Source: a phage. Taken from it: a stretch of DNA of 64,000 bases. The notes beneath the pieces are model-generated. The model had not been told where the DNA came from and did not search any database. It saw only the letters and a program-made list of their open reading frames with translations. The stretch lies in sequence record PV357172.2. One strand, written 5' to 3'. The translations under genes were made by a program, and so were the position numbers. Shown here piece by piece: positions 1,194 through 26,660 of the stretch; within the stretch, counting starts at the first letter, position 1, and each line of letters opens with the position of its first letter.

Positions 1194-1222
1194 TTGCTAA
1201 TCTACTAAATTATATGTATAAT
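1194..1222 (+). promoter_or_regulatory. sigma70-like early promoter (TTGCTA, 17-bp spacer, TATAAT)
   Basis: -35 TTGCTA 1194-1199 and -10 TATAAT 1217-1222, upstream A-tract; first member of a repeated promoter family. Confidence 0.6.
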
Positions 1223-1252
1223 ATATTTTTAAATTGATGAAACGAGGCTATT

Positions 1253-2074
1253 ATGGGTAAATTACAAAAACAAATACTACCACATATAGATTATATTCGA
1301 GAAATTATAGAGTATAATCCTTATACTGGTAAATTATTTTATAAGCCTAATAAATACAAGAATAAAACTTGGCACACCCTATATGCTGGGAGAGAAATAT
1401 GTAGTAAGAACTCTGATGGGTATATCAGAGTTAGTTTGCTCTTAGATAATAAACCCACAATTATTTATGGACACCGAATAGCGTGGTTGCTCCATTATGG
1501 TGAAGAGCCTCCTTATATGATCGACCATATAAATACCATACCGTGGGATAACAGAATTGTTAATCTAAGAGAGACAAATTTTAAGTTAAATAGGATTAAT
1601 ACTAATAAAACCGTAGGTGTAGAACTCCTCCCCGAGGGTTTTGTGTATAGCATTACATTAGGTGGAAAGTTTTTCGTATCTCCTGGCTTCACCACTTTCG
1701 AACAAGCTAAAGGGGAAAGAGAAAAACTAGTAAATGGTTTATGTAATGCAGAAATTGGGAAGCAGACCAATATTCTAATAGACGATGTTAGAGATCTACC
1801 TGAAATGTCCATTATTTGTCGTACAGTTATAGGTGCGCTGGAACTATCAGATATGTTTAGTTTTACTGGTTCCTACCTATTTATGGACTCAGATCTAGGA
1901 GACCCAGAAGTACAAGGAAAAGACTTATTAGATTATATACTCTTTTTAGGTCAAAGACCTTTGAAAGTAGTTCTAGTAACATCCAACCCTGTTGACGCAG
2001 AGTACATGAGAGGTACTCTTACGTCTTATGGTTATCGAGAAAATCCCAATAGGTTAGAATATGACCTATTTTAA
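1253..2074 (+). CDS. HNH homing endonuclease
   Basis: Motif GHRIAWLLHYGE...IDHIN...DNRIVNLRETN typical of the HNH family; sits beside the tRNA cluster. Confidence 0.8.
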   Translation: MGKLQKQILPHIDYIREIIEYNPYTGKLFYKPNKYKNKTWHTLYAGREICSKNSDGYIRVSLLLDNKPTIIYGHRIAWLLHYGEEPPYMIDHINTIPWDNRIVNLRETNFKLNRINTNKTVGVELLPEGFVYSITLGGKFFVSPGFTTFEQAKGEREKLVNGLCNAEIGKQTNILIDDVRDLPEMSIICRTVIGALELSDMFSFTGSYLFMDSDLGDPEVQGKDLLDYILFLGQRPLKVVLVTSNPVDAEYMRGTLTSYGYRENPNRLEYDLF

Positions 2075-2086
2075 GGAGTAAAAAGA

Positions 2087-2536
2087 ATGAAGGCAGCTTT
2101 GCTTTTAGTAGCTGCCCTTACCTTCAGCTTTAGTAGTCAGGCATCGCACGATGCAAAAGAAATAGATTGCATTGCTAAAAATATCTATTTTGAAAGTCGT
2201 GGTGAGGGCATAAATGGAATGATGGCGATTGCACATGTTACTAAAAACCGTGTAAACTCCGGTAAATTCCCAGATTCCTACTGTAAAGTAGTATATCAGT
2301 CTACCCAGTTCTCTTGGGTATCTAAGAGACCAAAAGTTGATAAAACGGATGAGGCTTGGCAAACCGCTAAGAATTTAGCTAGAGTGATATACTACGTTGA
2401 TTTACCACAAGATCCAACACATGGAGCACTATACTTCCATAGTGGTAAAGATAAACCTTACTGGACAAAGAAGTTTAAGAAAACAACGAAGATTCAAGGC
2501 CATACGTTCTACAAGCCTGCGGTCACTAAAACTTAA
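2087..2536 (+). CDS. SleB-like cell wall hydrolase with signal peptide
   Basis: N-terminal signal peptide; pattern NIYFESRGE...AIAHVTKNR...QFSW resembles the SleB / Hydrolase_2 family. Confidence 0.6.
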   Translation: MKAALLLVAALTFSFSSQASHDAKEIDCIAKNIYFESRGEGINGMMAIAHVTKNRVNSGKFPDSYCKVVYQSTQFSWVSKRPKVDKTDEAWQTAKNLARVIYYVDLPQDPTHGALYFHSGKDKPYWTKKFKKTTKIQGHTFYKPAVTKT

Positions 2537-2544
2537 AAATTTAT

Positions 2545-2573
2545 TTGCTTAAATACTTAAACTTCTGTATAAT
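2545..2573 (+). promoter_or_regulatory. sigma70-like early promoter
   Basis: TTGCTT 2545-2550, TATAAT 2568-2573, 17-bp spacer. Confidence 0.6.
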
Positions 2574-2604
2574 ACTTTCATAAATTAATGAGAGGAAGCG
2601 AAAT

Positions 2605-2775
2605 ATGAAGAACTTGATCGTCATTGGTGTTAACACTCGCGGTATTCGTACTACGAAAACTATTAAAACTTCTAACGTTGCTGAAATCACTACGAACCCT
2701 AAAAAGTTTGATTTCGCCAAAGTCTCAGCAGTTATGACGGAGCAATCTTTTAACCAAGCGTTAGGACTGAAATAA
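2605..2775 (+). CDS. small hypothetical protein (56 aa)
   Basis: ATG 2605 after promoter and GAGAGGAAG SD; stop overlaps next start (TAATG); below the track length cutoff. Confidence 0.4.
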   Translation: MKNLIVIGVNTRGIRTTKTIKTSNVAEITTNPKKFDFAKVSAVMTEQSFNQALGLK

Positions 2776-3218
2776 TGGAAGAGAATATTTTAGATGTTTT
2801 GCGTAGAGCTTTGCAGGATTCTAAGTTTAATGGTTCTGATAAAGAAGTCGCTAAAAGCTATCAGACCATAATCGGGGATCTTCAGCGTATTGATAAAGAT
2901 TTCATCACTTCTGAACAATTTGTGTCTTATCTCAAAGCTCAACTAAAAAGCATTAACCAGATGAAAGCTAAACTTCATGGTCAAGATCTTGATAGTTATA
3001 GCTTGCAGTCCGCTCAGTATGAATACATTCTAAATAAGTGGTTGCAGGAGTATCTGCCTCCTCAGTTATCTGATACTGAGATTCGTAAATACTTTGCAGA
3101 ATTAGTTAAGCTAAACCCTGGAATTACAAAAGGTATGCTGATGAAAGCGATTAAGGAAGAATTTCCTGGGCGTTATGATGGTGGTACTGCTGCTCAGATT
3201 GCTGGCGAATTTAATTAA
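2775..3218 (+). CDS. GatB/YqeY-domain protein
   Basis: C-terminal pattern EYLPPQLS...G...GMLMKAI......DGG matches YqeY/GatB-like domain proteins. Confidence 0.6.
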   Translation: MEENILDVLRRALQDSKFNGSDKEVAKSYQTIIGDLQRIDKDFITSEQFVSYLKAQLKSINQMKAKLHGQDLDSYSLQSAQYEYILNKWLQEYLPPQLSDTEIRKYFAELVKLNPGITKGMLMKAIKEEFPGRYDGGTAAQIAGEFN

Positions 3219-3226
3219 AAATTTAC

Positions 3227-3255
3227 TTGCTAAATGCTTATAAATTCTGTATAAT
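3227..3255 (+). promoter_or_regulatory. sigma70-like early promoter
   Basis: TTGCTA 3227-3232, TATAAT 3250-3255. Confidence 0.6.
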
Positions 3256-3262
3256 ATATTCA

Positions 3263-4050
3263 TAAATTAGGGAACAGCGAGCCGATTACGCTGAGTGCAG
3301 AATCCCAACCGGAGCGCATTGAATAGAGTCGGTGGGTTAGTTGTAAAACTAGTACACAGGGGGCGGCAATCCCGGTTAGTGGCTAGAACGTGTAAAATGA
3401 GGCGTCTGAAACCTCTCCCCTAAACTCTTCTCTAATTTATAAATAGTGGGGTGTGGAAATCACTTATGTAGTAACACTGCCGTCCTAGTATAATTGGTAT
3501 TATCAAGCCGTAACTGGTGGAAGATGTAGGTTCGAATCCTACGGTCGGTAAGAACTGGATAACTGATGCTTTTAACGTAAAAGCTTCCGAGGTTAGTTGC
3601 GCACTGCCTAAACCACGCGGTAGTTGGTTCCAGACTAACCAACCAGTCTGCTGAATAGTTTTATTACGATTTAACTATGCCCAGGCTAAAGAAGAACTTT
3701 AGAAGGTATTCTAGGATAGTGAAGTTCTTTCTCCATATCGGAGTAGTTTTTCAAGCTATCCACAAAGTGGGAAATGCTGACATGAGAGATGTCACTAATG
3801 GTGCACAATAGCACAGGTAATTCGCGATAACCCCTGTTGAGTAGCAGCAAAAGGCGGGAAGTCATGACCCCAAGCCTAACCGAGTCCTCAATATACCGCA
3901 GGACATAACCACTAAGTCCCCCTGACTTAAACTGGAAAATAATAGACGTTACTGTATTTTGTCTTGAAATACTTAATGAGTGAGACTTATGACTCTCCCG
4001 GTATCGTCTGTATTTTTAAGAGTTTTTACGAGAGTTCTTAAAAATACTTA
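3263..4050 (+). ncRNA. promoter-driven untranslated region upstream of tRNA-Arg; candidate structured RNA(s)
   Basis: About 790 nt between a consensus promoter and tRNA-Arg with no plausible ORF; contains one tRNA-like T-arm. Confidence 0.3.
3479..3550 (+). tRNA. tRNA-like element (T-arm and acceptor stem only)
   Basis: GTAGG-TTCGAAT-CCTAC T-arm with 6/7 acceptor pairing; D and anticodon arms weak. Confidence 0.25.
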
Positions 4051-4052
4051 AA

Positions 4053-4124
4053 CGGGGTGTAGTCTAAGGGAGAGGCAGGAGTCTTCTAAATTCCTTTATG
4101 CAGGTTCGAATCCTGTCACCTCGG
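4053..4124 (+). tRNA. tRNA-Arg (anticodon TCT)
   Basis: Acceptor CGGGGTG/CACCTCG, anticodon loop CTTCTAA, T-arm GCAGG-TTCGAAT-CCTGT, encoded CCA. Confidence 0.8.
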
Positions 4125-5168: not shown

Positions 5169-5314
5169 GTATTTAAGGCAAAAGAAAAAGCCCATAAGTT
5201 ATTCAACTAAGGTCTTTAGTATTTAATTCTTTAGAATCATATAATATTATTGCAGCAACAACGTGCTAACCTTAAGTGCCCTGCAATTTTCCTCTAAAAA
5301 GTTAAAAAATTCGA

Positions 5315-5343
5315 TTGCTTGAATGCTAAATTCTCTGTATAAT
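5315..5343 (+). promoter_or_regulatory. sigma70-like early promoter
   Basis: TTGCTT 5315-5320, TATAAT 5338-5343. Confidence 0.6.
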
Positions 5344-5373
5344 ATATTTATAAATTTGAGAGAGGAATCAAAT

Positions 5374-6429
5374 ATGATTAAGACTGGTCTAGTAATTGGT
5401 AAGTTCGCACCATTAACGCGTGGTCATATTAACCTAATAAACACAGCAGCAACTATGTGTGAACGAGTTATTGTTGTAGTTAGTCATGATAATCGTTGGC
5501 TGGATAAGCAGAACACACGTGATCAGGAAGTATTACAGTTAAAGAATCGACTTCGTTGGTTAGAACAAACTTACGCGGATATTGAGCACATTTCGGTAGA
5601 GTACATTATTGAAGATGATATTCCTGAATATCCGAATGGTTGGCCGGAATATGCTAGAATCCTTAATGAAAATTACGGACATTTGCCTGAGATCACCGTT
5701 TTCTCTAGCGAACTAGACTATGATGCAGAATATAAGAAATATCTGCCGAAGTTTGGTCATTATATTGTAGATTCTGATCGGACTCGTGTTCCAATCTCAG
5801 CTACAATGATTCGTAATGATCTTATGAAGTATTGGGAGTTTCTTCCTAGCTTAGTTCGTAAAGATTACGTGCGTAAGGTTGTAATCATTGGGACTGAAAG
5901 CTCGGGAAAGACTACTTTAACAAAATACCTTGCGAAGCTATACAACACTTCGTGGGTAGAAGAATATGGCCGAACGTATTGTGAAGTTGATCTAGTTGGT
6001 AACGAAAATCTACTTACCAGTGAAGATTACAGTAAAATTGCGTTCAGACACAAAGAGCTAGAGTTTGAAGCAGAACGTACTGCAAATAAGATCATGTTTG
6101 TGGATACAAATGCTTTTATTACTGAGTTCTACCACAGACTTTATGAACATAGTAAGAACCCTGTGGTTACAGCAATTGCAAAAGTAGAACATTACGATTT
6201 AGTAATTGTTCTAGCGCCTACTGTCAAGTGGGTAGATGATGATTTACGTATTAACTCCGATCGTTCAATTACTTCTGAACTGTTCGAGCAGATGAAGAAA
6301 GAATTTCCAAATCAGTTCCCTGAAGGGCGTACTGTTTACATCGACTCTCCGGACTACAAAGTTCGTATGGACGAAGCAGTAAACGCAGTAGACTGGCTGA
6401 TTCATCACTTTAACGTTGGAGAGTTTTAA
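5374..6429 (+). CDS. nadR: NadR-like NMN adenylyltransferase / ribosylnicotinamide kinase
   Basis: N-terminal nucleotidyltransferase motif (GKFAPLTRGHINLI) plus C-terminal Walker A (GTESSGKTT); ATG 5374 after SD AGAGGAA. Confidence 0.7.
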   Translation: MIKTGLVIGKFAPLTRGHINLINTAATMCERVIVVVSHDNRWLDKQNTRDQEVLQLKNRLRWLEQTYADIEHISVEYIIEDDIPEYPNGWPEYARILNENYGHLPEITVFSSELDYDAEYKKYLPKFGHYIVDSDRTRVPISATMIRNDLMKYWEFLPSLVRKDYVRKVVIIGTESSGKTTLTKYLAKLYNTSWVEEYGRTYCEVDLVGNENLLTSEDYSKIAFRHKELEFEAERTANKIMFVDTNAFITEFYHRLYEHSKNPVVTAIAKVEHYDLVIVLAPTVKWVDDDLRINSDRSITSELFEQMKKEFPNQFPEGRTVYIDSPDYKVRMDEAVNAVDWLIHHFNVGEF

Positions 6430-6430
6430 T

Positions 6431-7108
6431 ATGACTAACTATCTCGTAAATGACTTTAAAAACTGGAAACCTCTGGAATATCTGTGGCTGCTCATAGCGG
6501 TTGTCTTCATTAGTTTAGCAAACTATAATGGTACAGCTCTAGATTGGGCTACTGCAATAACCAATGTGGTTTGTGTTATTCTGGTTGCAAAAGGACGTGT
6601 TTCCAACTATATTTGGGGCTTAGTGGGTGTTCTTACATATGGTATTACAGCTTTAAACGCAGATCTTTATGGTAACGCTGCACTAAACCTGCTATACTAC
6701 GTTCCTATGCAGTTTTATGGAATGTACTTATGGCATAAAAATAAACCAAGTAATCTGCCAGACGTTCCAACTAAGGTTCTGACTAAAGCTCAGGCTTTAT
6801 TAACTCTTGGGATTCTAGCAGTAGCTACTCTAGGCTATGGCAGCTTCCTCGCTACCACAGCAGATCCGTTCCCAATGCTCGATGCATTTACTGCGGTTGG
6901 TAGTGTAATTGCTATGTGGCTTATGGTCAAGCAGTATGCTGAACAATGGCTAATCTGGATTGCCATTAATATTGGTACTGTATACATTTGGTTTGTAACT
7001 GCTCAGTCTACAGGTGCTTCTTATGCAATCCTAGCAATGTGGCTGGTATTCTTTGGTAACTCTGTACTTGGAGCCTATAAAGGGTACTTTGTACGCGTTA
7101 ACAAATAA
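6431..7108 (+). CDS. pnuC: PnuC-like nicotinamide riboside transporter
   Basis: About 225-aa polytopic membrane protein immediately after the NadR-like gene, Trp-rich helices as in PnuC. Confidence 0.6.
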   Translation: MTNYLVNDFKNWKPLEYLWLLIAVVFISLANYNGTALDWATAITNVVCVILVAKGRVSNYIWGLVGVLTYGITALNADLYGNAALNLLYYVPMQFYGMYLWHKNKPSNLPDVPTKVLTKAQALLTLGILAVATLGYGSFLATTADPFPMLDAFTAVGSVIAMWLMVKQYAEQWLIWIAINIGTVYIWFVTAQSTGASYAILAMWLVFFGNSVLGAYKGYFVRVNK

Positions 7109-7115
7109 AATAGTT

Positions 7116-7138
7116 ATAGCCCTCAAAGCGAGGGCTAT
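7116..7138 (+). terminator. terminator-like hairpin
   Basis: ATAGCCCTC-AAAGC-GAGGGCTAT hairpin after the PnuC-like gene. Confidence 0.45.
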
Positions 7139-7155
7139 TATCCAGAAAATTTCAC

Positions 7156-7184
7156 TTGCTAAATGCCGAGATTTTCTGTATAAT
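7156..7184 (+). promoter_or_regulatory. sigma70-like early promoter
   Basis: TTGCTA 7156-7161, TATAAT 7179-7184. Confidence 0.6.
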
Positions 7185-7198
7185 ATATTTATAAATTC

Positions 7199-7290
7199 GG
7201 AAGATTAACCCTAATTGGTAAGGGAGCATCTTGCTAAGTTGCCAGTAGCTGTGGAAACACGGTGTATCGGTTCAAGTCCGATATCTTCCT
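7199..7290 (+). tRNA. tRNA-Ser (GCT), long variable arm
   Basis: Perfect acceptor GGAAGAT/ATCTTCC, anticodon loop TTGCTAA, T-loop TTCAAGT, encoded CCA. Confidence 0.75.
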
Positions 7291-7298
7291 CCAAATTT

Positions 7299-7373
7299 GG
7301 TTCTCAAGCTCATTTGGTATGAGCCGTCGCCTCATAAGCGAAAGGTAGGTAGGTTCGAATCCTCCGGGAGCCA
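7299..7373 (+). tRNA. tRNA-Met/fMet/Ile2 (CAT)
   Basis: D-stem GCTC/GAGC, anticodon loop CTCATAA, T-loop TTCGAAT, encoded CCA. Confidence 0.7.
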
Positions 7374-8389: not shown

Positions 8390-8419
8390 CTCCTCCAAGC
8401 AGAAATTTTAAAAATGTAC

Positions 8420-8449
8420 TTGCTTTTTACTTAAGATTTCTGCTATAAT
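8420..8449 (+). promoter_or_regulatory. sigma70-like early promoter
   Basis: TTGCTT 8420-8425, TATAAT 8444-8449. Confidence 0.55.
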
Positions 8450-8478
8450 AGTTATATAAGTTGATGAGAGGAATCAGA

Positions 8479-8754: not shown

Positions 8755-8785
8755 CTGATACAGCACTGAGCAAGTTCTTTAAAAT

Positions 8786-8819
8786 TTGACTTGCTCAGTA
8801 CCTTAAAACTTGGTATAAT
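8786..8819 (+). promoter_or_regulatory. sigma70-like early promoter
   Basis: TTGACT/TTGCTC 8786-8796, TATAAT 8814-8819. Confidence 0.55.
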
Positions 8820-8889
8820 AGTTATCTAATTTGGAAACATATTTAAAAGTATTCAAATACTAGTTTAAACACTTTTAAATGTACATCGT

Positions 8890-8963
8890 TGGCAGAATGG
8901 CTATTGTAGCGGTCTGTAAATCCGTGCCCTTCGGGATTGGTGGTTCGAATCTTACACGGCCCG
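8890..8963 (+). tRNA. tRNA-like element with Tyr-type anticodon loop (CTGTAAA); possible pseudogene
   Basis: GGTTCGAATC T-loop and CCA end are present but acceptor and T-stems do not pair canonically. Confidence 0.2.
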
Positions 8964-9254: not shown

Positions 9255-9257
9255 ATT

Positions 9258-9839
9258 ATGCACGGAATATCCTTACCAATTCCAGGGTTTGAGGAGTACT
9301 TAGTAAGTTTGGATGGGTTAGTATTTAGTATCAAATCAAACAAAATACTAACCCCAATAACCAGTAATTACGGATACTTATCTATACGTCTCCATAAAAA
9401 TGGTCAACAGAGAAATACCGGTGTACATAGGATTTTAGCATGTGCATTTAAGAAATTACCAAGTCTAGACTCTGAACTAGAAGTTGACCATATTAACACA
9501 GACATTACTTATTGGGGTCTTAATAACTTACAAGTGCTCACAAAAGAGCAGCATCTAGAAAAGACTTTAAAAGATAAAGGATTTAGTAAACTAAACCATG
9601 ATAATTGTTGTAAGGATTGTGGTAAAGCTATTTCTTTAAAAGCTGAAAAATGTCAGGAGTGCTCTTCACATAAACCAAAAGATATCTCTATAACTAAAGA
9701 AATAATCGAGGTTACAGTAAGAGAGCTAGGCTGGTCAGGTGCAGGGAGAAAGTTAAGTTATTCAGATAATGGGTTGCGTAAAAGATACACTTCTTTAGGA
9801 GGCAATCCTAAAGAACTTAAAAAGTTAAAGGTACTATAG
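9258..9839 (+). CDS. HNH homing endonuclease
   Basis: LEVDHINTD...NNLQVLTKEQH HNH motif plus C-terminal Cys-rich region; stop codon overlaps the start of tRNA-Asp. Confidence 0.8.
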   Translation: MHGISLPIPGFEEYLVSLDGLVFSIKSNKILTPITSNYGYLSIRLHKNGQQRNTGVHRILACAFKKLPSLDSELEVDHINTDITYWGLNNLQVLTKEQHLEKTLKDKGFSKLNHDNCCKDCGKAISLKAEKCQECSSHKPKDISITKEIIEVTVRELGWSGAGRKLSYSDNGLRKRYTSLGGNPKELKKLKVL

Positions 9840-9901
9840 TCTAACGGTTAGGATACTCCCCTGTCACGGGAGAGGTAGGGTTTCGATTACCCTTAGTACC
9901 G
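9830..9901 (+). tRNA. tRNA-Asp (GTC)
   Basis: Perfect acceptor GGTACTA/TAGTACC, anticodon stem CTCCC/GGGAG, loop CTGTCAC, T-arm AGGGT-TTCGATT-ACCCT, CCA. Confidence 0.85.
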
Positions 9902-9910
9902 CCAAATTAT

Positions 9911-9984
9911 ACATCCATAGCTCAATTGGTTAGAGCTACCGCCTCTTAAGCGGTAGGTTCTAGGTTCAAGTCCTAGTGGGTGTA
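9911..9984 (+). tRNA. tRNA-Lys (CTT)
   Basis: D-stem GCTC/GAGC, anticodon stem ACCGC/GCGGT, loop CTCTTAA, T-arm CTAGG-TTCAAGT-CCTAG, CCA. Confidence 0.85.
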
Positions 9985-10271: not shown

Positions 10272-10527
10272 CCAAATTTAGGTTTCTGCTTCCTAGAGAA
10301 CGGACTCCTAGATAAACAAGGCGATGAGTTTCCGGCCGGTTCTAGTCGCTGAAAATCCTCCCGACCAGGTAGGTGTAAGTAAATGAAAGTTTACTTATTG
10401 AGTAGGTTCCGATAGACCGGCGGGTCTATTCTGGCATTTAAGAGAGGTCTCGCAAACTTCTTTGTCAGCCGTGGGGTTGGTAGCCTCCAGGTGGCCTACA
10501 CAATAAGTAAATTTATTAAAAATTCAT

Positions 10528-10556
10528 TTGCTATTCTGCTTAATTCTCTGTATAAT
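10528..10556 (+). promoter_or_regulatory. sigma70-like early promoter
   Basis: TTGCTA 10528-10533, TATAAT 10551-10556. Confidence 0.6.
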
Positions 10557-10587
10557 ATATTTTATAAAGTGAGTTAACAAAAATTAA

Positions 10588-10921: not shown

Positions 10922-11395
10922 ATGCTTATTAACAGGGTGCTTCAAGCTCTAGATCTTCCAGAGCTCTTTACTATTACCGACCCCTTAATACATCGGTATA
11001 TGGAAAAGTATAATGAAATCTCTGGTAAAAAAGGGAAACTAAAATCCTCAGAATTTAAGTTCTGTTATAGAATGGCAGCATTAAACCTCTTAAAGTACAA
11101 GAGGGAGCATAAAATCCCTATAACAGAAGGATTTGTCTATGTAATAGGTAGTCCAGCATGGCCTGGACTATATAAGATAGGTATGACAGTAGATGTGAAT
11201 GAAAGACTGTCTAGTTATCAAACATATTCGCCTTATCGTGATTACAAGTTATACCATTTCAGATTCTCCTCGGACAAGAGAAGAACTGAAAAAGCATTAC
11301 ATAACCTTCTGAAGGACTACAAAGTATCAGGAGAATGGTTTGAAGTACCTCTGTTAGACGCCTTCAAACTATTAGTAGAAAATTTGGATTGCTAA
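10922..11395 (+). CDS. GIY-YIG-like (T5orf172-domain) homing endonuclease
   Basis: GFVYVIGS...YKIGMT...ERLSSY...EWFEV matches the T5orf172 pattern; stop overlaps tRNA-Lys start. Confidence 0.65.
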   Translation: MLINRVLQALDLPELFTITDPLIHRYMEKYNEISGKKGKLKSSEFKFCYRMAALNLLKYKREHKIPITEGFVYVIGSPAWPGLYKIGMTVDVNERLSSYQTYSPYRDYKLYHFRFSSDKRRTEKALHNLLKDYKVSGEWFEVPLLDAFKLLVENLDC

Positions 11396-11460
11396 CTCAA
11401 CTGGATAAGAGTACCGGACCTTTAATCCGTCAGTTCTGGGTTCGAATCCCAGGCAATCCA
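11386..11460 (+). tRNA. tRNA-Lys (TTT)
   Basis: Perfect acceptor GGATTGC/GCAATCC, D-stem ACTC/GAGT, loop CCTTTAA (unusual C33), T-arm CTGGG-TTCGAAT-CCCAG, CCA. Confidence 0.75.
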
Positions 11461-11481
11461 CCAATTTCAAGAAAAACTCAG

Positions 11482-11511
11482 TTGCTTGATGCTTAATTTC
11501 TTGTTATAATA
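11482..11511 (+). promoter_or_regulatory. sigma70-like early promoter
   Basis: TTGCTT 11482-11487, TATAAT 11506-11511. Confidence 0.55.
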
Positions 11512-11748
11512 TTTATATAAATTGATGAGGAGAAATCCTCATCATAGTTCACTAAGGTATTAGCTCGACCTAGGACTGGCTGCCAAAAAGCACGATCCCT
11601 ACGATTTGGGAGAAGTTCTAGATTAGTCCACTAGATTCAGCGGCAACTGAATAGTGTATCGGTTTTGCGAGATGACGCGGTTCCTTCCGCTCGAAGCGAA
11701 GGTGCTGTAGTTACGCCGAGCTAATAGCCTTAGTAAACTAAGGAATTT

Positions 11749-11928: not shown

Positions 11929-12513
11929 ATGCAGTTTGTACCAATAAAAGATGCACCAGGGTATTTAGTAAATGAAACAGGGGATGTGTTATCTACATTT
12001 ACTAATAAAATCTTATCAAGATATATAGTTGATGGGTACCCTGCTGTAAAATTACAGATAAATGGTAAGCAAACTTCGGTACTTATACACCGAATTATTT
12101 CTCATGTATTTGGGGACTTATATAATCTATTTGACCCTGAATTAGAAGTAGATCACAAGGATAGAGATAGGCTGAATCTATCTAAAGATAATCTTCAAGT
12201 TTTATCAAAAATAGAACATCAGAAGAAAACTAATAAAGATAATGGATGGTCTGATAGTAGAGTACCTTGCCCCTTATGTGGAAATCTAATGCTTCAGAGA
12301 TCAGTAACATGTACAAATTGTAAGCCAAAACCTACAGGAAAGTTAATAAAACCAGAATTGTCCTTAGAAGACATAACTGAAAAGGTTTTATTAATGGGGT
12401 GGGTTAAGGCAGCTAAAGATCTAGAAGTATCAGAGTCCACTTTACGTAGACGATATACTAAACTAACCGGATTAAGCCCGAAAGTATTAACAGAACAACG
12501 GAAAAGCAAATAG
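11929..12513 (+). CDS. HNH homing endonuclease
   Basis: HRIISHVFG...LEVDHKDRDRLNLSKDNLQVL HNH motif plus CxxC pairs; 3' end overlaps tRNA-Ser. Confidence 0.8.
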   Translation: MQFVPIKDAPGYLVNETGDVLSTFTNKILSRYIVDGYPAVKLQINGKQTSVLIHRIISHVFGDLYNLFDPELEVDHKDRDRLNLSKDNLQVLSKIEHQKKTNKDNGWSDSRVPCPLCGNLMLQRSVTCTNCKPKPTGKLIKPELSLEDITEKVLLMGWVKAAKDLEVSESTLRRRYTKLTGLSPKVLTEQRKSK

Positions 12514-13860: not shown

Positions 13861-14025
13861 TAACCTAAAATTAAGGGTTGACAAACAAAAGAAATACGTT
13901 GAGGTTGAATTAGGCGAAGAACGCTTAAAGCTAACTTTCGAGTTTCTTCAGCAGTTGGCTATGACAGTCATGACTGATAAGTCTCCTGTTATTGAAAAAG
14001 AAATCCCGTTGAAATAGGAAGCAAC

Positions 14026-14418
14026 ATGGAGTTTACTTGTTTAAATTGCGGAATCACAAAACCTAAAAGTAGGGGTTCCGCAGGTAAGTATTGTGGTGCT
14101 GCTTGTCAGCAGGAGTACCAGACAAAGCAAAAAGTATTAAAGTGGCTGGCAGGTGAAGAACCTGGTTATACTGGTAAAGCTGCACAATTAAAACCTTTTG
14201 TTAGGAAGTGGCTGTGGGATACTCGTGGTACTGCTTGTGAAGTATGTGGTTGGGATGGGAAACATCCAATTGACGGAGCAGTTTTAACTGAGGTAGATCA
14301 TATAGATGGAGATGCAACTAACTGTTCTCCAGAAAATCTAAAGATTCTCTGCCCTAACTGTCACTCTATGACACCTACGCATAGGGCCAGAAATAGAGTT
14401 TCAACAAGACAACGATAG
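14026..14418 (+). CDS. HNH endonuclease (zinc-binding)
   Basis: VDHIDGD...NLKILCPNCH HNH motif plus N-terminal CxxC pairs; stop TAG supplies G1 of tRNA-Thr. Confidence 0.75.
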   Translation: MEFTCLNCGITKPKSRGSAGKYCGAACQQEYQTKQKVLKWLAGEEPGYTGKAAQLKPFVRKWLWDTRGTACEVCGWDGKHPIDGAVLTEVDHIDGDATNCSPENLKILCPNCHSMTPTHRARNRVSTRQR

Positions 14419-14489
14419 CTCTTAAAGCATTGCTGGCGATGCAACGGTCTTGTAAACCGTGGAACCGGGTTCGATTCCTGGTGGGAGCA
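14418..14489 (+). tRNA. tRNA-Thr (TGT)
   Basis: Acceptor GCTCTTA/TGGGAGC, anticodon stem ACGGT/ACCGT, loop CTTGTAA, T-arm CCGGG-TTCGATT-CCTGG, CCA. Confidence 0.8.
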
Positions 14490-14507
14490 CCAAAATTAAA
14501 AAATTCA

Positions 14508-14537
14508 TTTGCCTTCTCTCTTATTTCTTGTTATAAT
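14508..14537 (+). promoter_or_regulatory. sigma70-like early promoter
   Basis: TTTGCC -35-like 14508-14513, TATAAT 14532-14537. Confidence 0.5.
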
Positions 14538-14567
14538 ATTTATATAAATTAATGAGAGGGAAACCAA

Positions 14568-16089: not shown

Positions 16090-16437
16090 ATGAGCCGTAC
16101 TTATCGTAGACAAACTGGTGATCAGTGGTGGAAGTCTAAAGCTAATTACACCCAGGGGTATACTTTCCTCAAAGCAAGTGGCTACTGGATTCGTGTTATT
16201 TATGCTAAATCCTGGGATGATGTAGAACAGGAAATGAAGGAAGCAACTGTTCGTAATGAGAAAAAGGATGGTTATAACTGGAATTCTATTAGTAAGAATG
16301 TTAAGTGGCATTCTAATAAAATGGTTCGTCAAGGGAATCGTCAAGAACTCCACCGCGTGATGAAAGATCCAGAAAATTATGATTATAATCGCGATCATGA
16401 CATGCGTAAGCGTGGATTATGGTGGTGCTATGACTAA
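16090..16437 (+). CDS. hypothetical protein (115 aa)
   Basis: Track ORF with GGAGG SD. Confidence 0.5.
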   Translation: MSRTYRRQTGDQWWKSKANYTQGYTFLKASGYWIRVIYAKSWDDVEQEMKEATVRNEKKDGYNWNSISKNVKWHSNKMVRQGNRQELHRVMKDPENYDYNRDHDMRKRGLWWCYD

Positions 16438-16454
16438 ATTCTGAAATAATTCAT

Positions 16455-16483
16455 TTGCTAAACCTCTCTTTTCTTGCTATAAT
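16455..16483 (+). promoter_or_regulatory. sigma70-like early promoter
   Basis: TTGCTA 16455-16460, TATAAT 16478-16483. Confidence 0.6.
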
Positions 16484-16513
16484 ATATTTATAAATTGATG
16501 AGAGAGGTTTGAA

Positions 16514-18485: not shown

Positions 18486-18579
18486 GATTGACACTAAGTC
18501 AGCTTACTAGCAAAAGCAAATAATGACAAAGCCCAGCCTGCACTTTTGCGACTGGGCTATTTTTATAATAAAATTTTAG

Positions 18580-18608
18580 TTGCTTAGATGCCCAAACTTT
18601 TGTATAAT
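18580..18608 (+). promoter_or_regulatory. sigma70-like early promoter
   Basis: TTGCTT 18580-18585, TATAAT 18603-18608, preceded by a terminator hairpin. Confidence 0.6.
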
Positions 18609-18639
18609 ATGTTTATAGATTGAGGCAAGAGGATTAAAT

Positions 18640-19338: not shown

Positions 19339-19744
19339 GTGGTATATCCTGGGAGCAGGTCTAGCGATAGGCATCGGGTTCGGTGCTTATCACTTAGTAG
19401 ATAAAGTGGAGACTTTAGCAGGAGATCTTGCGGTAGCTACTAAAAAGATTTCTTCTCTAGAGACTTCCCTCAATAAGGTGAAAGCTGAAAGCGAACTTCG
19501 TGAGACTAGAATGAATCAGTATTTCACAATGAATAATATTTTGCAAGCAGATCTAGACAAAAAGATTAAGCAGTTAGACAAAGCTCTTAGTCGCCAAGAT
19601 ATTATAGCTGCAAAGCCTGGATTGGTAACATTAATTGCTAAAAAGCAGAGTAAAGAGTTCGAGGAAAGATTAGCGTGTTTAACTGGAAACTTGGAATACT
19701 GCTCGCAGCCGCAATCACAATCACAGGCTGTGCAGAAGAAATAA
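19295..19744 (+). CDS. membrane-anchored coiled-coil protein; i-spanin candidate
   Basis: N-terminal TM helix (WYILGAGLAIGIGFGAY) followed by a long coiled coil. Confidence 0.4.
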   Translation: MDLIQKLLSGIWHGKWYILGAGLAIGIGFGAYHLVDKVETLAGDLAVATKKISSLETSLNKVKAESELRETRMNQYFTMNNILQADLDKKIKQLDKALSRQDIIAAKPGLVTLIAKKQSKEFEERLACLTGNLEYCSQPQSQSQAVQKK

Positions 19745-22613: not shown

Positions 22614-22624
22614 TTAATAACTGA

Positions 22625-22690: not shown

Positions 22691-23107
22691 ATGTTTGCAG
22701 AACTATTCACTATGATGCTGCTAGGTATCTGGAAAATAAGTCTAGTAGTATTCGTTTTAATGATAGTCTTTACTATCCTTGCATTAACTACCCGAAATAG
22801 CTTATTAATAAAGGTTATTCACGGACTAGAGTATATAATTATGGGTTCATTCGGCGTTTGTAAATGCAATTGCCATAGAGATACGAAATATTGTTGGTTA
22901 TGGATGGAACTAGAGAATCCTATATCCATAGCTTTGGCTGTTTCATTCGGTATGATTCTTATGGCCCTTACTCTAGCATTAATACCTTTGATGTTAGCTG
23001 GGGGAGTTACAGCGTATTTCACCCTTTTCTCCCCGATACTTATGTACTCAATTTACCCAATAACTATGTATCTAGTTAGGAAAAGATTTATACATGCAGT
23101 AGATTAA
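22691..23107 (+). CDS. polytopic membrane protein (138 aa)
   Basis: Four hydrophobic segments; downstream of the lysis genes. Confidence 0.5.
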   Translation: MFAELFTMMLLGIWKISLVVFVLMIVFTILALTTRNSLLIKVIHGLEYIIMGSFGVCKCNCHRDTKYCWLWMELENPISIALAVSFGMILMALTLALIPLMLAGGVTAYFTLFSPILMYSIYPITMYLVRKRFIHAVD

Positions 23108-23120
23108 GATAAAAAAGTAG

Positions 23121-23149
23121 TTGACTTTTAGCCCTAGTTATTATATAAT
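23121..23149 (+). promoter_or_regulatory. sigma70-like early promoter
   Basis: TTGACT 23121-23126, TATAAT 23144-23149, 17-bp spacer. Confidence 0.6.
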
Positions 23150-23182
23150 ATATACATAAATTAGTTAAGAGAGGTATATATT

Positions 23183-23897: not shown

Positions 23898-23902
23898 TAA
23901 AC

Positions 23903-23936
23903 CAAGCCTGATCTTAGCGGATCAGGCTTTTATTTT
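23903..23936 (+). terminator. rho-independent terminator
   Basis: AAGCCTGATC...GATCAGGCTT hairpin followed by a T-run. Confidence 0.65.
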
Positions 23937-23938
23937 AC

Positions 23939-23967
23939 TTGCTTTCAGCTAAAAATTTTGGTATAAT
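23939..23967 (+). promoter_or_regulatory. sigma70-like early promoter
   Basis: TTGCTT 23939-23944, TATAAT 23962-23967. Confidence 0.55.
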
Positions 23968-23994
23968 ACTTATATAAATTGATAGGAGGATTAA

Positions 23995-24240
23995 ATGTTA
24001 GCGGAACAAGCAAAACGTTTAGCTAGGATAAATAGAGCCGCGTCCCTCAAGAGCCGAAAGAAAACGTATAGATGGGTTAAGCGGAGGATAGTATCTTCTG
24101 TCGAGATTGGAGGTTCTTTTGTACAGCTTAATCGTGACGAAATTAGTTATGAAGCTATAAAAGCCCTCAATAAAGAGGGTTATACTCTCAAACTATCAAA
24201 TAATTATGGTACAACTATTTTAAATGTTATTTGGGAATAA
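23995..24240 (+). CDS. hypothetical protein (81 aa)
   Basis: Track ORF with GGAGG SD. Confidence 0.45.
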   Translation: MLAEQAKRLARINRAASLKSRKKTYRWVKRRIVSSVEIGGSFVQLNRDEISYEAIKALNKEGYTLKLSNNYGTTILNVIWE

Positions 24241-24242
24241 TT

Positions 24243-25106
24243 ATGAAAAAAGAATTTAATGTGCATAAAACACTAGTAGTACCTGATGATGTTAACTTAT
24301 TCTTTGTTGGTGATATTCATGGATGCAACGATTTACTAGAAGATGCACTACAATTAGCTGGCTATAACGGCAAGAAAGATTGCGTTGTATGCGTGGGAGA
24401 TTTAATTGATCGAGGCACGCAGAACCTACAAGTTTTAGCCAAATTCCTGTATAATCCACGCTTTATCAGTGTACGTGGTAATCATGACCAATTTATGATT
24501 GTGGGAGATTGGGCTAACTGGATGTATAACGGTGGTATGTGGGCCATGAATGAACTAGATGCAGATACCATTAAAAATATTGCTGAAGACATGGCTGAAA
24601 AAATGCCAGTATTTCTGACTGTATTGCATCGTGGTAAAAAGTATGGTGTTGTTCATGGTGGTGTACCTTTTACGTACAAAGAATGCGGTAACGAAGTAGA
24701 AACCCCAGTATGGGATAGCCTTATTGCACAAGTAGAAGCAGCTAAGGAAGACCCACATGACCATCCTGGATACCATGTTGAGCCATACTTATGGGATCGA
24801 GATGTAATCCAAGAAATAGGTTTTCACTTAGCTAAAAATGGTGAAGAACACTCACATTTCCAGCGTTATGCAGGGTTTAAAGAGAAATACATGGTAGAAG
24901 TACCTCCGGTTAATGGAGTAGACTTTGTATTTCATGGGCATACCGGAGTACCTTACCCGATTTTATACCAGAACCGTGTTTACCTAGATACTGGCGGTGT
25001 TTTCAACGGGCAGTTGACGGTTGCGCAGGTTAACGATGAAACTGGCAAAATCACCACATTTACCACAGACAAAAATGATAGCTGCGGTGTACAGAGGATC
25101 CTTTAA
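24243..25106 (+). CDS. serine/threonine protein phosphatase (calcineurin-like)
   Basis: GDIHGC, GDLIDRG and GNHD metallophosphatase motifs in the canonical order. Confidence 0.7.
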   Translation: MKKEFNVHKTLVVPDDVNLFFVGDIHGCNDLLEDALQLAGYNGKKDCVVCVGDLIDRGTQNLQVLAKFLYNPRFISVRGNHDQFMIVGDWANWMYNGGMWAMNELDADTIKNIAEDMAEKMPVFLTVLHRGKKYGVVHGGVPFTYKECGNEVETPVWDSLIAQVEAAKEDPHDHPGYHVEPYLWDRDVIQEIGFHLAKNGEEHSHFQRYAGFKEKYMVEVPPVNGVDFVFHGHTGVPYPILYQNRVYLDTGGVFNGQLTVAQVNDETGKITTFTTDKNDSCGVQRIL

Positions 25107-25393
25107 TGAATGATAGAATGAAAGAAGTACAAGAAGAATTACGAGCAATGCGTATTGATGCCCTTCGTTGGAGGGCATTAGTTAATGCTTTCGTCAAAGG
25201 AGATACCGGAGTAATATATTCTGGAATAGCAGTCAATTTTTGTTTTAATTCTCCTGCTGAAATAGAGATAGAAACAAGGCTTACTACCTACCTTAATGAG
25301 GTAGACCTTAAGGAAGGAGAGACTCCCGAGGAGTTTAAAACTAGAGTATTAACTACCTGGGTTGATAATTTAATACAAAAAAGGAGTAAGTGA
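25106..25393 (+). CDS. hypothetical protein (95 aa)
   Basis: Track ORF, translationally coupled. Confidence 0.45.
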   Translation: MNDRMKEVQEELRAMRIDALRWRALVNAFVKGDTGVIYSGIAVNFCFNSPAEIEIETRLTTYLNEVDLKEGETPEEFKTRVLTTWVDNLIQKRSK

Positions 25394-25983
25394 TGAAGGT
25401 TAAATTCTGGTCAGACTTGCACTTAGACCACCCTGGAGCACTACGTTTCCGTCCGTGGTTTAAGAACATGAAAGAGCACGATGAGTATATTCTAGATACT
25501 TTGTCCAAGCATATTGGTAAACGAACAAAACTTATTTTGCTAGGAGATATTGCAGTAGGTCGTGAAGGTCTGGCCAAATTAAAGTCGGTTATCCACAATG
25601 TCCCTAATCAACTCATTATGGGTAATCATGATGCGGAGCGTCAAGGACTGAGTATTAGGGACTTAGCGGAAGTTTATGATGATATTCAGGCTCTAGGTAA
25701 ACAGACTGGAGGTGGCAAAAAGTTTTGGCTATCTCACTGCCCTTTGCATCCCAATGAACTTCGTGGCAAACTAAATATTCATGGACACGTACATACTACT
25801 TCTCTACGTGATCCACGTTATATCAATGTTTCATTTGAAATGAGTAAAACTCCAATTCCTCTAGAGGATATTGTGTCTGGTAAGTTTACTAGCTATGATA
25901 AAGTAGTTAATTGTACTACCGGCGAGGTATTACAAATAGGGGAAGACGTAGCTGCTGTATTACGTGGGGATATAAATGTCTGA
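25393..25983 (+). CDS. metallophosphoesterase
   Basis: GDIAVG, MGNHD and HGHVH motifs. Confidence 0.6.
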   Translation: MKVKFWSDLHLDHPGALRFRPWFKNMKEHDEYILDTLSKHIGKRTKLILLGDIAVGREGLAKLKSVIHNVPNQLIMGNHDAERQGLSIRDLAEVYDDIQALGKQTGGGKKFWLSHCPLHPNELRGKLNIHGHVHTTSLRDPRYINVSFEMSKTPIPLEDIVSGKFTSYDKVVNCTTGEVLQIGEDVAAVLRGDINV

Positions 25984-26091
25984 GTATATAGCTGAGGCTA
26001 TTATTAAACGAATCATACAAGCGATAGCAATACTTATAATCATTTGTATTGCTATTGGTACAGGATTAGGCATTTTAATTAAAAGTTTTAT

Positions 26092-26120
26092 TTGCTAAAA
26101 TGCTTAAGTTTCTGTATAAT
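26092..26120 (+). promoter_or_regulatory. sigma70-like early promoter
   Basis: TTGCTA 26092-26097, TATAAT 26115-26120. Confidence 0.6.
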
Positions 26121-26150
26121 TACTTTATAAATTGATGAGAAGGAATCAAA

Positions 26151-26582
26151 ATGAACAAAGTTGATAAAGCTCTAGTTTTCGCAGCAGCAGATAAGTTTGA
26201 ACAAGTTAAGGCAACTTTCCGAACCTTGTTCCAGTCTTACGTTCAGGATAAGTCTAATCCTATCTCTGAACGTTTGATGGTCTGGGAATGTCATGCTTGC
26301 AATGCCCTATTAATTGCGGATTATCGTAGCGATATAGATAAAGATCTGTGCGAAATTCTTATCGCTGAGGAGGCAGAACGTTATCAGTTAATCTCTTTCC
26401 AAGATTTGGCGGAGCATATCATTCCTGATGATCTTTGGGATAAATACTACGGTGATCCTGAGGACGAAGGATTGACTCCAGAAGCCTGTATTGAGCTAAT
26501 CTGCAAAGATCATCCTGAAATTGCAGAGAAATTTGAAAAAGTTTTTGCTTCTGAGTTCTCCGGCGTTGTTAACGATTGGTAA
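26151..26582 (+). CDS. hypothetical protein (143 aa)
   Basis: Track ORF after conserved GATGAGAAGG leader. Confidence 0.5.
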   Translation: MNKVDKALVFAAADKFEQVKATFRTLFQSYVQDKSNPISERLMVWECHACNALLIADYRSDIDKDLCEILIAEEAERYQLISFQDLAEHIIPDDLWDKYYGDPEDEGLTPEACIELICKDHPEIAEKFEKVFASEFSGVVNDW

Positions 26583-26599
26583 GTAATTAAAAAATTCAG

Positions 26600-26628
26600 T
26601 TGCTTTAAGCCTTAAAATTCTGTATAAT
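26600..26628 (+). promoter_or_regulatory. sigma70-like early promoter
   Basis: TTGCTT 26600-26605, TATAAT 26623-26628. Confidence 0.6.
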
Positions 26629-26660
26629 AAGTTCATAAATTAATGAGAGAGGAAATTCTA

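What the first reader, a model, noticed from the sequence alone, without database searches (positions are those of the whole stretch)
1194..26640. Family of at least 16 near-identical early promoters with a conserved leader
The element AAAAATTCATTTGCTAAATGCTTAAATTCTCTGTATAATATATTTATAAATTGATGAGAGG (with TTGCT[A/T], 17-bp spacer, TATAAT and an upstream A-tract) recurs with small variations before genes and tRNA operons at about 1194, 2545, 3227, 5315, 7156, 8420, 8786, 10528, 11482, 14508, 16455, 18580, 23121, 23939, 26092 and 26600. The leader ATAAATTGATGAGAGG supplies the Shine-Dalgarno sequence. The regularity suggests copy-paste spread of a promoter-leader cassette, possibly together with the mobile endonuclease genes.
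Basis: seen in the sequence. Interest (0 to 1): 0.4.

Follow-up and report, generated by a model that had tools for sequence, protein, structure and literature searches.

The report
Known T5-type early promoter family
The repeated element is the strong early promoter and short leader that phage T5 and its relatives use to recruit the host RNA polymerase; it is long known and annotated in T5, but a few copies have recombined with each other and deleted the genes between them.

Summary
All 16 elements exist on the + strand between 1.17 and 26.65 kb. TTGCTW-N16-18-TATAAT occurs 14 times against 0.3 expected. A 17th copy lies on the minus strand at 44310-44385.

The window is a T5-like phage (Markadamsvirinae), collinear with T5 positions 44314 to 105. 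Each of the 16 elements has a positional counterpart among the promoters annotated in the T5 GenBank record (P11, P13a/b, P14a, P15a-c, P16-17, P-D/E33, P-F30 and others). Mean identity is 92% between counterparts but only 60% between copies within the window. The same consensus has been published for T5-like phages. So this is the known T5-type sigma-70 early promoter with its leader.

"Near-identical" is overstated, because the quoted 61-mer occurs nowhere verbatim. Spread together with homing endonucleases is not supported: three polymorphic endonuclease insertions carry no promoter.

One new point emerged. The tRNA-Ser promoter at 7156 is a chimera of three promoters that are separate in phage SE24. 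A second promoter-by-promoter deletion exists in other relatives. However, homology breakpoints are no denser in promoters than in other intergenic DNA. Interest is low.

The parts
1171..1246 (+). Early promoter and leader; counterpart of the T5 promoter at 43067-43141; drives the HNH/cREC_REC ORF 1253-2074
   Evidence: 93% identical to the T5 counterpart; Pfam
2522..2597 (+). Early promoter and leader; counterpart of T5 P-D/E33; ATG at 2605
   Evidence: 100% identical over 71 nt
3204..3279 (+). Early promoter; counterpart of T5 P16-17; drives a non-coding RNA region, a tRNA-like gene at 3479-3550 and tRNA-Arg at 4053
5292..5367 (+). Early promoter and leader; counterpart of T5 P15a; here it drives nadR-pnuC (ATG at 5374)
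   Evidence: 99% identical. P15a is named as an early promoter seen by primer extension in PMC7472727
7116..7138 (+). Stem-loop after pnuC that abuts the chimeric promoter; it marks the upstream parent (P1 of SE24, CitS1 and Stitch)
7133..7208 (+). Early promoter for tRNA-Ser(GCU) and tRNA-Met (tRNA starts 8 nt after the predicted start site). It is a chimera: upstream flank from P1, spacer from P2 and leader from P3 of SE24
8398..8473 (+). Early promoter and leader with an 18-bp spacer; counterpart of T5 P15c; ATG at 8479
8768..8843 (+). Early promoter; counterpart of T5 P14a; -35 box TTGCTC at 8790; no Shine-Dalgarno sequence in the leader
   Evidence: 97% identical
10505..10580 (+). Early promoter; counterpart of T5 P13a; drives tRNA-Pro and tRNA-Met
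11459..11534 (+). Early promoter; counterpart of T5 P13b; the leader forms the hairpin GATGAGGAGAAATCCTCATC; drives an RNA2H-like region, tRNA-Ala and tRNA-Leu
14486..14561 (+). Early promoter and leader; counterpart of T5 P11; -35 box TTGCCT; ATG at 14568
16432..16507 (+). Early promoter and leader; counterpart of the T5 promoter at 26722-26796; ATG at 16514
18557..18632 (+). Early promoter and leader with a stem-loop directly upstream; counterpart of the T5 promoter at 24443-24517; ATG at 18640
23098..23173 (+). Early promoter and leader; -35 box TTGACT; counterpart of the T5 promoter at 19368-19442; ATG at 23183
   Evidence: 100% identical
23916..23991 (+). Early promoter and leader. The T-tail of the terminator hairpin 23904-23929 takes the place of the A-tract. 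Counterpart of the T5 promoter at 18550-18624; ATG at 23995
26069..26144 (+). Early promoter and leader; counterpart of T5 P-F30; ATG at 26151
   Evidence: 100% identical
26577..26652 (+). Early promoter and leader; counterpart of the T5 promoter at 16245-16319; ATG at 26661
   Evidence: 100% identical
44310..44385 (-). It drives the 88-aa lipoprotein ORF 44036-44302(-), which lies divergent from the receptor-binding protein gene 44388-46145
   Evidence: (48.4 bits)

Best explanation
These are the T5-type early promoters of a T5-like phage (Markadamsvirinae), read by the host sigma-70 RNA polymerase. Each unit has six parts: an A-tract near -43 (like an UP element), a -35 box TTGCTW, a 17-bp (once 18-bp) spacer with a T-rich 3' half, a perfect -10 box TATAAT, an A/T-rich discriminator, and a start at the A of ATAAATT. 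For protein genes the transcript continues into a purine-rich Shine-Dalgarno sequence (GAGAGG type), with ATG at +22 to +28. For tRNA and stable-RNA units only the +1 to +8 part is kept. About one such promoter every 1.7 kb re-initiates transcription along the co-directional array of early genes and tRNAs. Shown here: the motif, its statistics, its orientation and distance to genes, and its positional correspondence to annotated T5 promoters. Inferred from T5 literature and established knowledge: use by host sigma-70 polymerase early in infection, the start site, and the contribution of the A/T-rich initial transcribed region to promoter strength.
For: Motif frequency is far above chance. All 17 copies point the same way as the gene or tRNA that follows. 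The predicted start lies 21-27 nt before the start codon in 11 cases and 8 nt before tRNA-Ser in one. Window 1-42370 is collinear with T5 positions 44314 to 105. The T5 record AY543070 annotates 75-bp promoter features at each corresponding position, many with names dating from mapping work (P11, P13a/b, P14a, P15a-c, P16-17, P-D/E33, P-F30). Mean identity between counterparts is 92%, with five at 99-100%. Niu et al. 2012 report 32 promoters in the T5-like phage AKFV33 with consensus TTGCTw, a 17-18 bp spacer, TATAATA, AAAAATT near -43 and TAAATT at +1 (PMC3326045). Klimuk et al. 2020 place -12 to +2 of T5 N25 at TATAATAGATTCAT, which fixes +1 at the A of ATAAATT. They also describe primer-extension evidence for the early promoter P15a and an A/T-rich discriminator consensus in early promoters (PMC7472727). 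The minus-strand copy sits before a lipoprotein ORF beside the receptor-binding gene. In related records the genes under the match include a receptor-blocking protein. The reference list cites work on a T5 receptor-blocking lipoprotein expressed early. No family member was found in the part of the window that lies beyond the T5 left end, apart from this copy.
Against: There are no transcript data for this phage, so timing and start sites are carried over from T5. Three members (8786, 10528, 23121) score lower (22.8-25.2 bits leave-one-out). A generic sigma-70 consensus scan is not enriched at all (53 found against 52.5 expected), so only the family-specific signature is informative. The primary T5 promoter papers (Gentz and Bujard 1985; Wang et al. 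2005) were not available in the held library. Their content is cited from my own knowledge or through secondary sources.
Confidence: 0.93

Rival explanations
1. A mobile promoter-leader cassette that spread recently by copy-paste, possibly carried with homing endonuclease genes.
For: Many copies share one consensus. One HNH gene (1253-2074) sits directly behind a copy. Pairwise identities vary more than independent columns would give (P=0.0005), which suggests subfamilies.
Against: All 16 copies are positionally conserved in T5 at 92% identity, while copies within the window are only 60% identical, 77% at most. There is no adjacency effect (Mantel test not significant). The three endonuclease insertions that vary among relatives (9255-9914, 10922-11463, 14016-14415) contain no promoter. 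The promoter in front of the HNH gene at 1253 is continuous with T5 homology up to the start codon, so the endonuclease arrived behind an existing promoter.
Confidence: 0.05
2. Besides being promoters, the copies act as dispersed homology for recombination. They would mediate deletion, gain and exchange of early-gene modules, as the promoter-early stem-loop cassettes (PeSLs) do in T4-type phages.
For: There is an allelic series at the tRNA-Ser promoter. SE24 has P1-orfA-P2-orfB-P3-tRNA. Stitch and L009 have P1-orfA-(P2 upstream and spacer + P3 leader). The window and phiR2-01 have a single promoter with the P1 flank, the P2 spacer and the P3 leader. A second case: L021 carries the P13b upstream flank with the P11 spacer and leader, while L019 has P13b and P11 1793 bp apart. 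Across 28 genomes, 33 upstream-flank clusters combine with 49 downstream-flank clusters in 66 ways around promoters. PeSL papers: PMC2839356 and PMC4122927.
Against: Against the proper null, unique homology breakpoints are no denser in promoters (14.3 per kb) than in other non-genic DNA (14.8 per kb, P=0.60). The enrichment seen against a uniform null is an intergenic effect. Only 2 deletions bounded by promoters on both sides were found in the 28-genome set, plus the Stitch hybrid. The T5st0 laboratory deletion is annotated at a 10-bp repeat inside ORFs, not at promoters. Only 3-4 of 16 copies have an adjacent stem-loop. Conserved promoters flanked by variable cargo could also reflect selection keeping the promoters intact.
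Confidence: 0.35
3. The conservation beyond the sigma-70 hexamers (spacer TTCTG, A/T-rich discriminator, ATAAATT) exists mainly because a phage-encoded factor reads it to switch the early class off. RNA polymerase kinetics would be the lesser reason.
For: Klimuk et al. report that T5 early and late promoters differ mainly in the discriminator. They also report that gpT5.026 binds RNA polymerase and weakens its contact with the -5/+2 region. The +1 to +8 part is kept in full in 3 of the 5 promoters that drive RNAs and need no Shine-Dalgarno sequence, and as variants in the other two.
Against: Only 6-7 of the 16 copies carry the exact ATATT discriminator. The reported effect of gpT5.026 in vitro is small. 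An effect of the transcribed region of T5 N25 on promoter strength with host polymerase alone is established knowledge (Kammerer et al. 1986, cited from memory). That effect needs no phage factor.
Confidence: 0.25
4. A chance pattern in A/T-rich intergenic DNA.
For: The genome is about 39% G+C, and a loose sigma-70 scan finds as many sites as in shuffled sequence.
Against: 14 exact matches against 0.3 expected. Weight-matrix scores are more than 20 bits above any shuffle. Strand and distance to genes are consistent, and positions are conserved across genera.
Confidence: 0.01

Closest known systems
Bacteriophage T5 early promoters (P-N25, P-N26, P-K28a, P-D/E33, P-H207, P11-P16 series; Bujard laboratory, and the promoter features of GenBank AY543070)
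   Same: Same architecture and same genomic positions: A-tract, TTGCTW, 17-bp spacer, TATAAT, A/T-rich discriminator, ATAAATT start, GAGAGG Shine-Dalgarno sequence. Counterparts are 69-100% identical, mean 92%.
   Different: The host genome differs: it is an Epseptimavirus-like mosaic, about 87-91% identical to its best-covered relatives. The cargo behind some promoters differs: P15a drives nadR-pnuC here but T5.076 in T5. P14b is absent. The counterpart of P15b is a chimera, only 69% identical.
Promoter set described for T5-like phage AKFV33 (Niu et al. 2012, PMC3326045)
   Same: The published consensus is identical: TTGCTw, 17-18 bp spacer, TATAATA, AAAAATT near -43 and TAAATT at +1. That paper counts 32 promoters per genome.
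   Different: None of substance. That paper does not discuss recombination between copies.
PeSL (promoter-early stem-loop) cassettes of T4-type phages (Arbiol et al. 2010; Comeau et al. 2014)
   Same: Both are dispersed strong sigma-70-type early promoters among small non-essential genes. Recombination between neighbouring copies deletes the DNA between them, and three such events are documented here.
   Different: The phage family is unrelated (Demerecviridae). Most copies lack the adjoining stem-loop. No mini-circles have been shown. Breakpoints are not enriched relative to other intergenic DNA.

Membership tests
T5-type early sigma-70 promoters | -35 box TTGCTW, spacer of 17-18 bp, -10 box TATAAT(A) | tested here: met
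   13 of 16 match exactly and 3 differ by one base in the -35 box. TATAAT is present in 16 of 16. The spacer is 17 bp in 15 and 18 bp in 1.
T5-type early sigma-70 promoters | A/T-rich block near -43 (AAAAATT) and A/T-rich start region (TAAATT) | tested here: met
   The consensus and information profile show both blocks. One exception is 23939, where a terminator T-tail replaces the A-tract.
T5-type early sigma-70 promoters | Positional correspondence to promoters mapped or annotated in T5 | tested here: met
   16 of 16 map onto promoter features of AY543070 within collinear homology, with mean identity 92%.
T5-type early sigma-70 promoters | Transcription by host sigma-70 holoenzyme in the early phase, starting at the A of ATAAATT | not testable with these tools
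   Carried over from T5: the N25 numbering and P15a primer extension in PMC7472727.
PeSL-type recombination cassettes | Strong early promoter joined to a stem-loop terminator | tested here: not met
   Only 7156, 18580 and 23939 (and an A/T-rich hairpin at 26092) have an adjacent stem-loop.
PeSL-type recombination cassettes | Indels between relatives whose junctions lie in two promoter copies | tested here: met
   Three events: P2 x P3 (Stitch, L009), P1 x P2/3 (window, phiR2-01) and P13b x P11 (L021 against L019).
PeSL-type recombination cassettes | Breakpoints concentrated at the cassettes rather than in intergenic DNA generally | tested here: not met
   14.3 against 14.8 unique breakpoints per kb, P=0.60.
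PeSL-type recombination cassettes | Excised mini-circles packaged in virions | not testable with these tools
   Needs PCR or sequencing of lysates.
Homing-endonuclease-associated mobile cassette | Promoter copy gained or lost together with an endonuclease gene | tested here: not met
   Three polymorphic endonuclease insertions carry no promoter. The promoter at 1194 predates the HNH gene behind it.

The most novel reading that the evidence does not exclude
In Markadamsvirinae the dispersed T5-type early promoters act as portable homology that repeatedly mediates loss, gain and exchange of early-gene modules. This would be the counterpart in a second, unrelated phage family of the PeSL mechanism of T4-type phages. 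The three-parent chimeric tRNA-Ser promoter at 7156 would be a direct footprint of it.
Probability: 0.35. Interest if true: 0.4.

Novelty: already known. Interest (0 to 1): 0.18.

Why it matters
The promoter family itself adds nothing new. It is the classic T5 promoter type, the source of the N25 promoter used in expression vectors, and it is routinely annotated in T5-like genomes. Its practical use here is for annotation: it defines 17 early transcription units, including tRNA operons and the lipoprotein gene next to the receptor-binding gene. The modest added value is evidence that copies of a strong promoter can recombine with each other and remove whole genes. This is one concrete route for the turnover of small accessory genes and tRNAs in the T5 early region. 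It is relevant to phage engineering because repeated T5 promoters are potential instability points.

Tried and rejected
1. A generic sigma-70 scan was uninformative (53 sites against 52.5 expected).
2. Breakpoint enrichment at promoters looked significant against a uniform null (P=0.001-0.07). It vanished against other non-genic DNA (P=0.60), so I do not claim a promoter-specific hotspot.
3. A test for local duplication or gene conversion found no relation between copy similarity and genomic order (Mantel test not significant). Adjacent and non-adjacent means differ by only 0.02-0.03 in four relatives.
4. The PeSL-like composite was rejected as a general feature, because stem-loops abut only 3-4 of 16 copies.
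5. The T5st0 laboratory deletion was checked as a possible promoter-mediated event. It is annotated at a 10-bp repeat inside ORFs.
6. The BF23 tRNA-region record showed the same arrangement as T5 and no informative indel.
7. An exact-pattern scan of IMG/VR for the tRNA-Ser leader returned only 3 loci.
8. Gentz and Bujard 1985 could not be read. Two literature searches failed on term format. A further search found no paper on promoter-mediated shuffling in Demerecviridae. This shows only that none is in the held library.
9. An Rfam scan of 1-30000 found only tRNAs.
Full report
**Observation**

The pattern TTGCTW-N16-18-TATAAT matches 14 times in the 64-kb window. Shuffles give 0.30 on average and 3 at most.

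The three listed sites that miss the exact pattern are one-base variants of the -35 box: TTGCTC at 8790, TTGCCT at 14509 and TTGACT at 23121.

The leader motif AAATTGATGAGAGG, with up to 2 mismatches, occurs 9 times on the + strand in the region. The expectation for both strands is 0.84.

A two-block weight matrix, anchored separately on the -35 and -10 boxes, recovers exactly the 16 listed sites on the + strand. Leave-one-out scores are 22.8-63.6 bits, against at most 0.4 in shuffled sequence. The matrix adds one strong minus-strand member (-10 box at 44339, 48.4 bits) and two weak sites at 35981(-) and 30045(+).

Two details are overstated:
- The quoted 61-mer is not present anywhere. The best copy has 11 mismatches.
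- Copies are 41-77% identical over 71 nt, mean 60%. They share a strong consensus but are not near-identical.

**What the window is**

The region is 87-91% identical, with 75-82% coverage, to Epseptimavirus phages such as SE24 and CitS1. Window 1-42370 is collinear with the minus strand of phage T5 (AY543070) from 44314 to 105. It carries 19 tRNA genes interleaved with small ORFs. This is the early region and the terminal-repeat (pre-early) region of a T5-like phage.

**What the elements are**

The T5 GenBank record annotates about 40 promoter features of 75 bp. Many carry names from the original mapping work. Their sequences belong to the same family.

Each of the 16 window elements maps onto one of them within collinear homology:

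| Window position | T5 promoter |
|---|---|
| 1194 | promoter at 43067 |
| 2545 | P-D/E33 |
| 3227 | P16-17 |
| 5315 | P15a |
| 7156 | P15b |
| 8420 | P15c |
| 8786 | P14a |
| 10528 | P13a |
| 11482 | P13b |
| 14508 | P11 |
| 16455 | promoter at 26722 |
| 18580 | promoter at 24443 |
| 23121 | promoter at 19368 |
| 23939 | promoter at 18550 |
| 26092 | P-F30 |
| 26600 | promoter at 16245 |

Mean identity between counterparts is 92%, and five are 99-100% identical.

The consensus has been published for T5-like phages. Niu et al. 2012 give TTGCTw, a 17-18 bp spacer, TATAATA, AAAAATT near -43 and TAAATT at +1, with 32 promoters in AKFV33 (PMC3326045).

Klimuk et al. 2020 give TATAATAGATTCAT as positions -12 to +2 of T5 N25. 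This places +1 at the A of ATAAATT. They report primer-extension evidence for the early promoter P15a. They also note an A/T-rich discriminator in early promoters, and a phage protein (gpT5.026) that binds RNA polymerase and weakens its contact with that region (PMC7472727).

From my own knowledge, not checked here:
- Gentz and Bujard 1985 and Wang et al. 2005 described the family and its conserved blocks.
- Kammerer et al. 1986 showed that the transcribed region of N25 contributes to promoter strength.

**Anatomy and mechanism**

All 17 copies point the same way as what follows them.

For 11 copies the predicted start lies 21-27 nt before a start codon. A Shine-Dalgarno-like purine run lies at about +8 to +19 (ORFs).

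Five copies drive RNAs:
- 3227 drives a non-coding region, a tRNA-like gene and tRNA-Arg.
- 7156 drives tRNA-Ser, which begins 8 nt after the start.
- 8786 has a leader without a Shine-Dalgarno sequence.
- 10528 drives tRNA-Pro.
- 11482 drives an RNA2H-like region and tRNA-Ala.

ATAAATT at +1 to +7 is kept in full in three of these five and as variants in the other two. All five lack the GAGAGG run, although 11482 has a GAGGAG within its hairpin. So the leader has two parts.

The minus-strand copy drives an 88-aa lipoprotein ORF (44036-44302). This ORF lies divergent from the receptor-binding protein gene. In related records the genes under the match include a receptor-blocking protein. A T5 receptor-blocking lipoprotein expressed early is cited in the reference list.

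Apart from this copy, no family member lies in the part of the window beyond the T5 left end. Nine distant Demerecviridae loci have none.

**Test of the copy-paste and endonuclease idea**

Copies within the window are far less alike (60%) than counterparts across genera (92%). Similarity does not fall with distance along the genome. Four relatives show the same picture. The family is therefore old and held in place, and it is not spreading now.

Five endonuclease-type genes lie in 1-27 kb (Pfam):
- 1253-2074 (HNH_3 plus cREC_REC)
- 9258-9839 (NUMOD4 plus HNH_3)
- 10922-11395 (T5orf172/MUG113)
- 11929-12513 (HNH_3)
- 14026-14418 (HNH)

Three of them are insertion polymorphisms relative to T5, CitS1 or SE24, and those insertions contain no promoter. 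The gene at 1253 sits behind a promoter whose homology with T5 runs uninterrupted up to the start codon. Co-mobility is therefore not supported.

**Recombination between promoter copies**

SE24 has, after pnuC and its stem-loop, three promoters in a row:
- P1, then orfA.
- P2, then orfB (the homologue of T5.076).
- P3, then tRNA-Ser.

Stitch and IMG/VR locus L009 keep P1 and orfA. Their next promoter has the P2 upstream flank and spacer joined to the P3 leader, and orfB is gone.

The window and phiR2-01 have a single promoter. It has the P1 upstream flank (the stem-loop at 7116-7138), the P2-type spacer (TTGCTAAATGCCGAGATTTTCTG) and the P3 leader (CGGAAGATTAACCC). Both ORFs are gone.

A second locus shows the same thing. 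L019 has P13b and P11 1793 bp apart. L021 has one promoter with the P13b upstream flank and the P11 spacer and leader.

These are direct footprints of recombination between promoter copies. The closest precedent is the PeSL cassettes of T4-type phages (PMC2839356 and PMC4122927).

**Limits of that reading**

- In 28 genomes, 373 promoter instances combine 33 upstream-flank clusters with 49 downstream-flank clusters in 66 ways. Only two deletions are bounded by promoters on both sides.
- Breakpoints looked enriched at promoters against a uniform null. Against other non-genic DNA they are not: 14.3 against 14.8 per kb, P=0.60, with genic DNA at 5.1 per kb.
- The T5st0 laboratory deletion is annotated at a 10-bp repeat inside ORFs.
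- Only 3-4 of 16 copies have an adjoining stem-loop.

Promoter-by-promoter recombination is therefore shown to happen. It is not shown to be a dominant or special mechanism.

**Verdict**

The promoter-plus-leader reading is correct, but it is already known and already annotated in T5. The mobile-cassette and endonuclease reading is not supported. Interest is low. The one addition is the chimeric promoter at 7156 and the small allelic series around it.

Noticed in passing
window 3479-3550 (+): Rfam finds a tRNA-like gene (35.5 bits) that ARAGORN did not report. It lies downstream of promoter 3227, in the region T5 annotates as stable 'RNAX'. CitS1 annotates a tRNA-Sec(tca) about 500 bp downstream of the corresponding promoter. 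It may be a suppressor-type or degenerate tRNA.
   Followed up: no
window 1253-2074 (+): This 273-aa ORF combines an HNH_3 endonuclease domain with a C-terminal cREC_REC domain. It replaces most of the T5.084 homologue directly behind promoter 1194. Homology with T5 stops at the start codon and resumes about 40 bp before the stop.
   Followed up: partly
window 14026-14418 (+) and 9258-9839 (+): The HNH gene at 14026-14418 is absent from T5, CitS1 and SE24, and it ends exactly where tRNA-Thr begins (14418). The NUMOD4/HNH gene at 9258-9839 overlaps tRNA-Asp (9830) by 10 nt. Both are endonuclease genes wedged against tRNA genes.
   Followed up: partly
window 8842-8934: T5 has about 1.5 kb here, between the points matching window 8842 and 8934. 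It carries tRNA-Tyr, Glu, Trp, Phe, Cys and Asn, promoter P14b and small ORFs. The window has 92 bp. As a result the counterpart of P14a (8786) no longer precedes its tRNA cluster. The window has 19 tRNAs in all and also lacks tRNA-Val upstream of 11482.
   Followed up: partly
window 11523-11544: A perfect hairpin, GATGAGGA-GAAA-TCCTCATC, starts about 7 nt after the predicted start of promoter 11482. It is conserved in T5 P13b, CitS1 and SE24 and lies at the 5' end of the RNA2H-like stable RNA.
   Followed up: no
window 23962-24240; L003 36538-37035; L004 34616-34653: The slot directly behind promoter 23939 has three states. CitS1 has an extra 378-bp ORF. The window and T5 have an 81-aa ORF. 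In SE24 the promoter runs straight into the phosphatase gene. The first gene after a promoter seems to turn over often.
   Followed up: partly
L037, L039-L046 (IMG/VR loci): In distant Demerecviridae, whose lipoprotein homologue is 75-77% identical, the same neighbourhood has no TTGCTW/ATAAATT promoters. In the four loci inspected (L037, L039, L041, L044) a few canonical TTGACA-type sites appear instead. The family signature seems confined to the T5/Epseptimavirus clade.
   Followed up: partly
window 5200-7300: Short GenBank records labelled 'Listeria phage LM 4-11-1' (OR847496.1, 98.6% identical) and 'Salmonella phage S.Hadar 4-5-1' (99.2% identical) match this nadR-pnuC region. A Listeria host label for a T5-like enterobacterial phage fragment looks like a labelling or contamination problem.
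   Followed up: no
leaders of the promoters at 2545, 8420, 11482, 14508, 16455, 26092 and 26600, among others: The common leader variant TT(G/A)ATGAGAGG contains an ATG at about +9 to +11, upstream of the Shine-Dalgarno sequence. In one case checked (2545) it is out of frame with the gene, and at 26600 it is in frame. Its significance is unknown.
   Followed up: no
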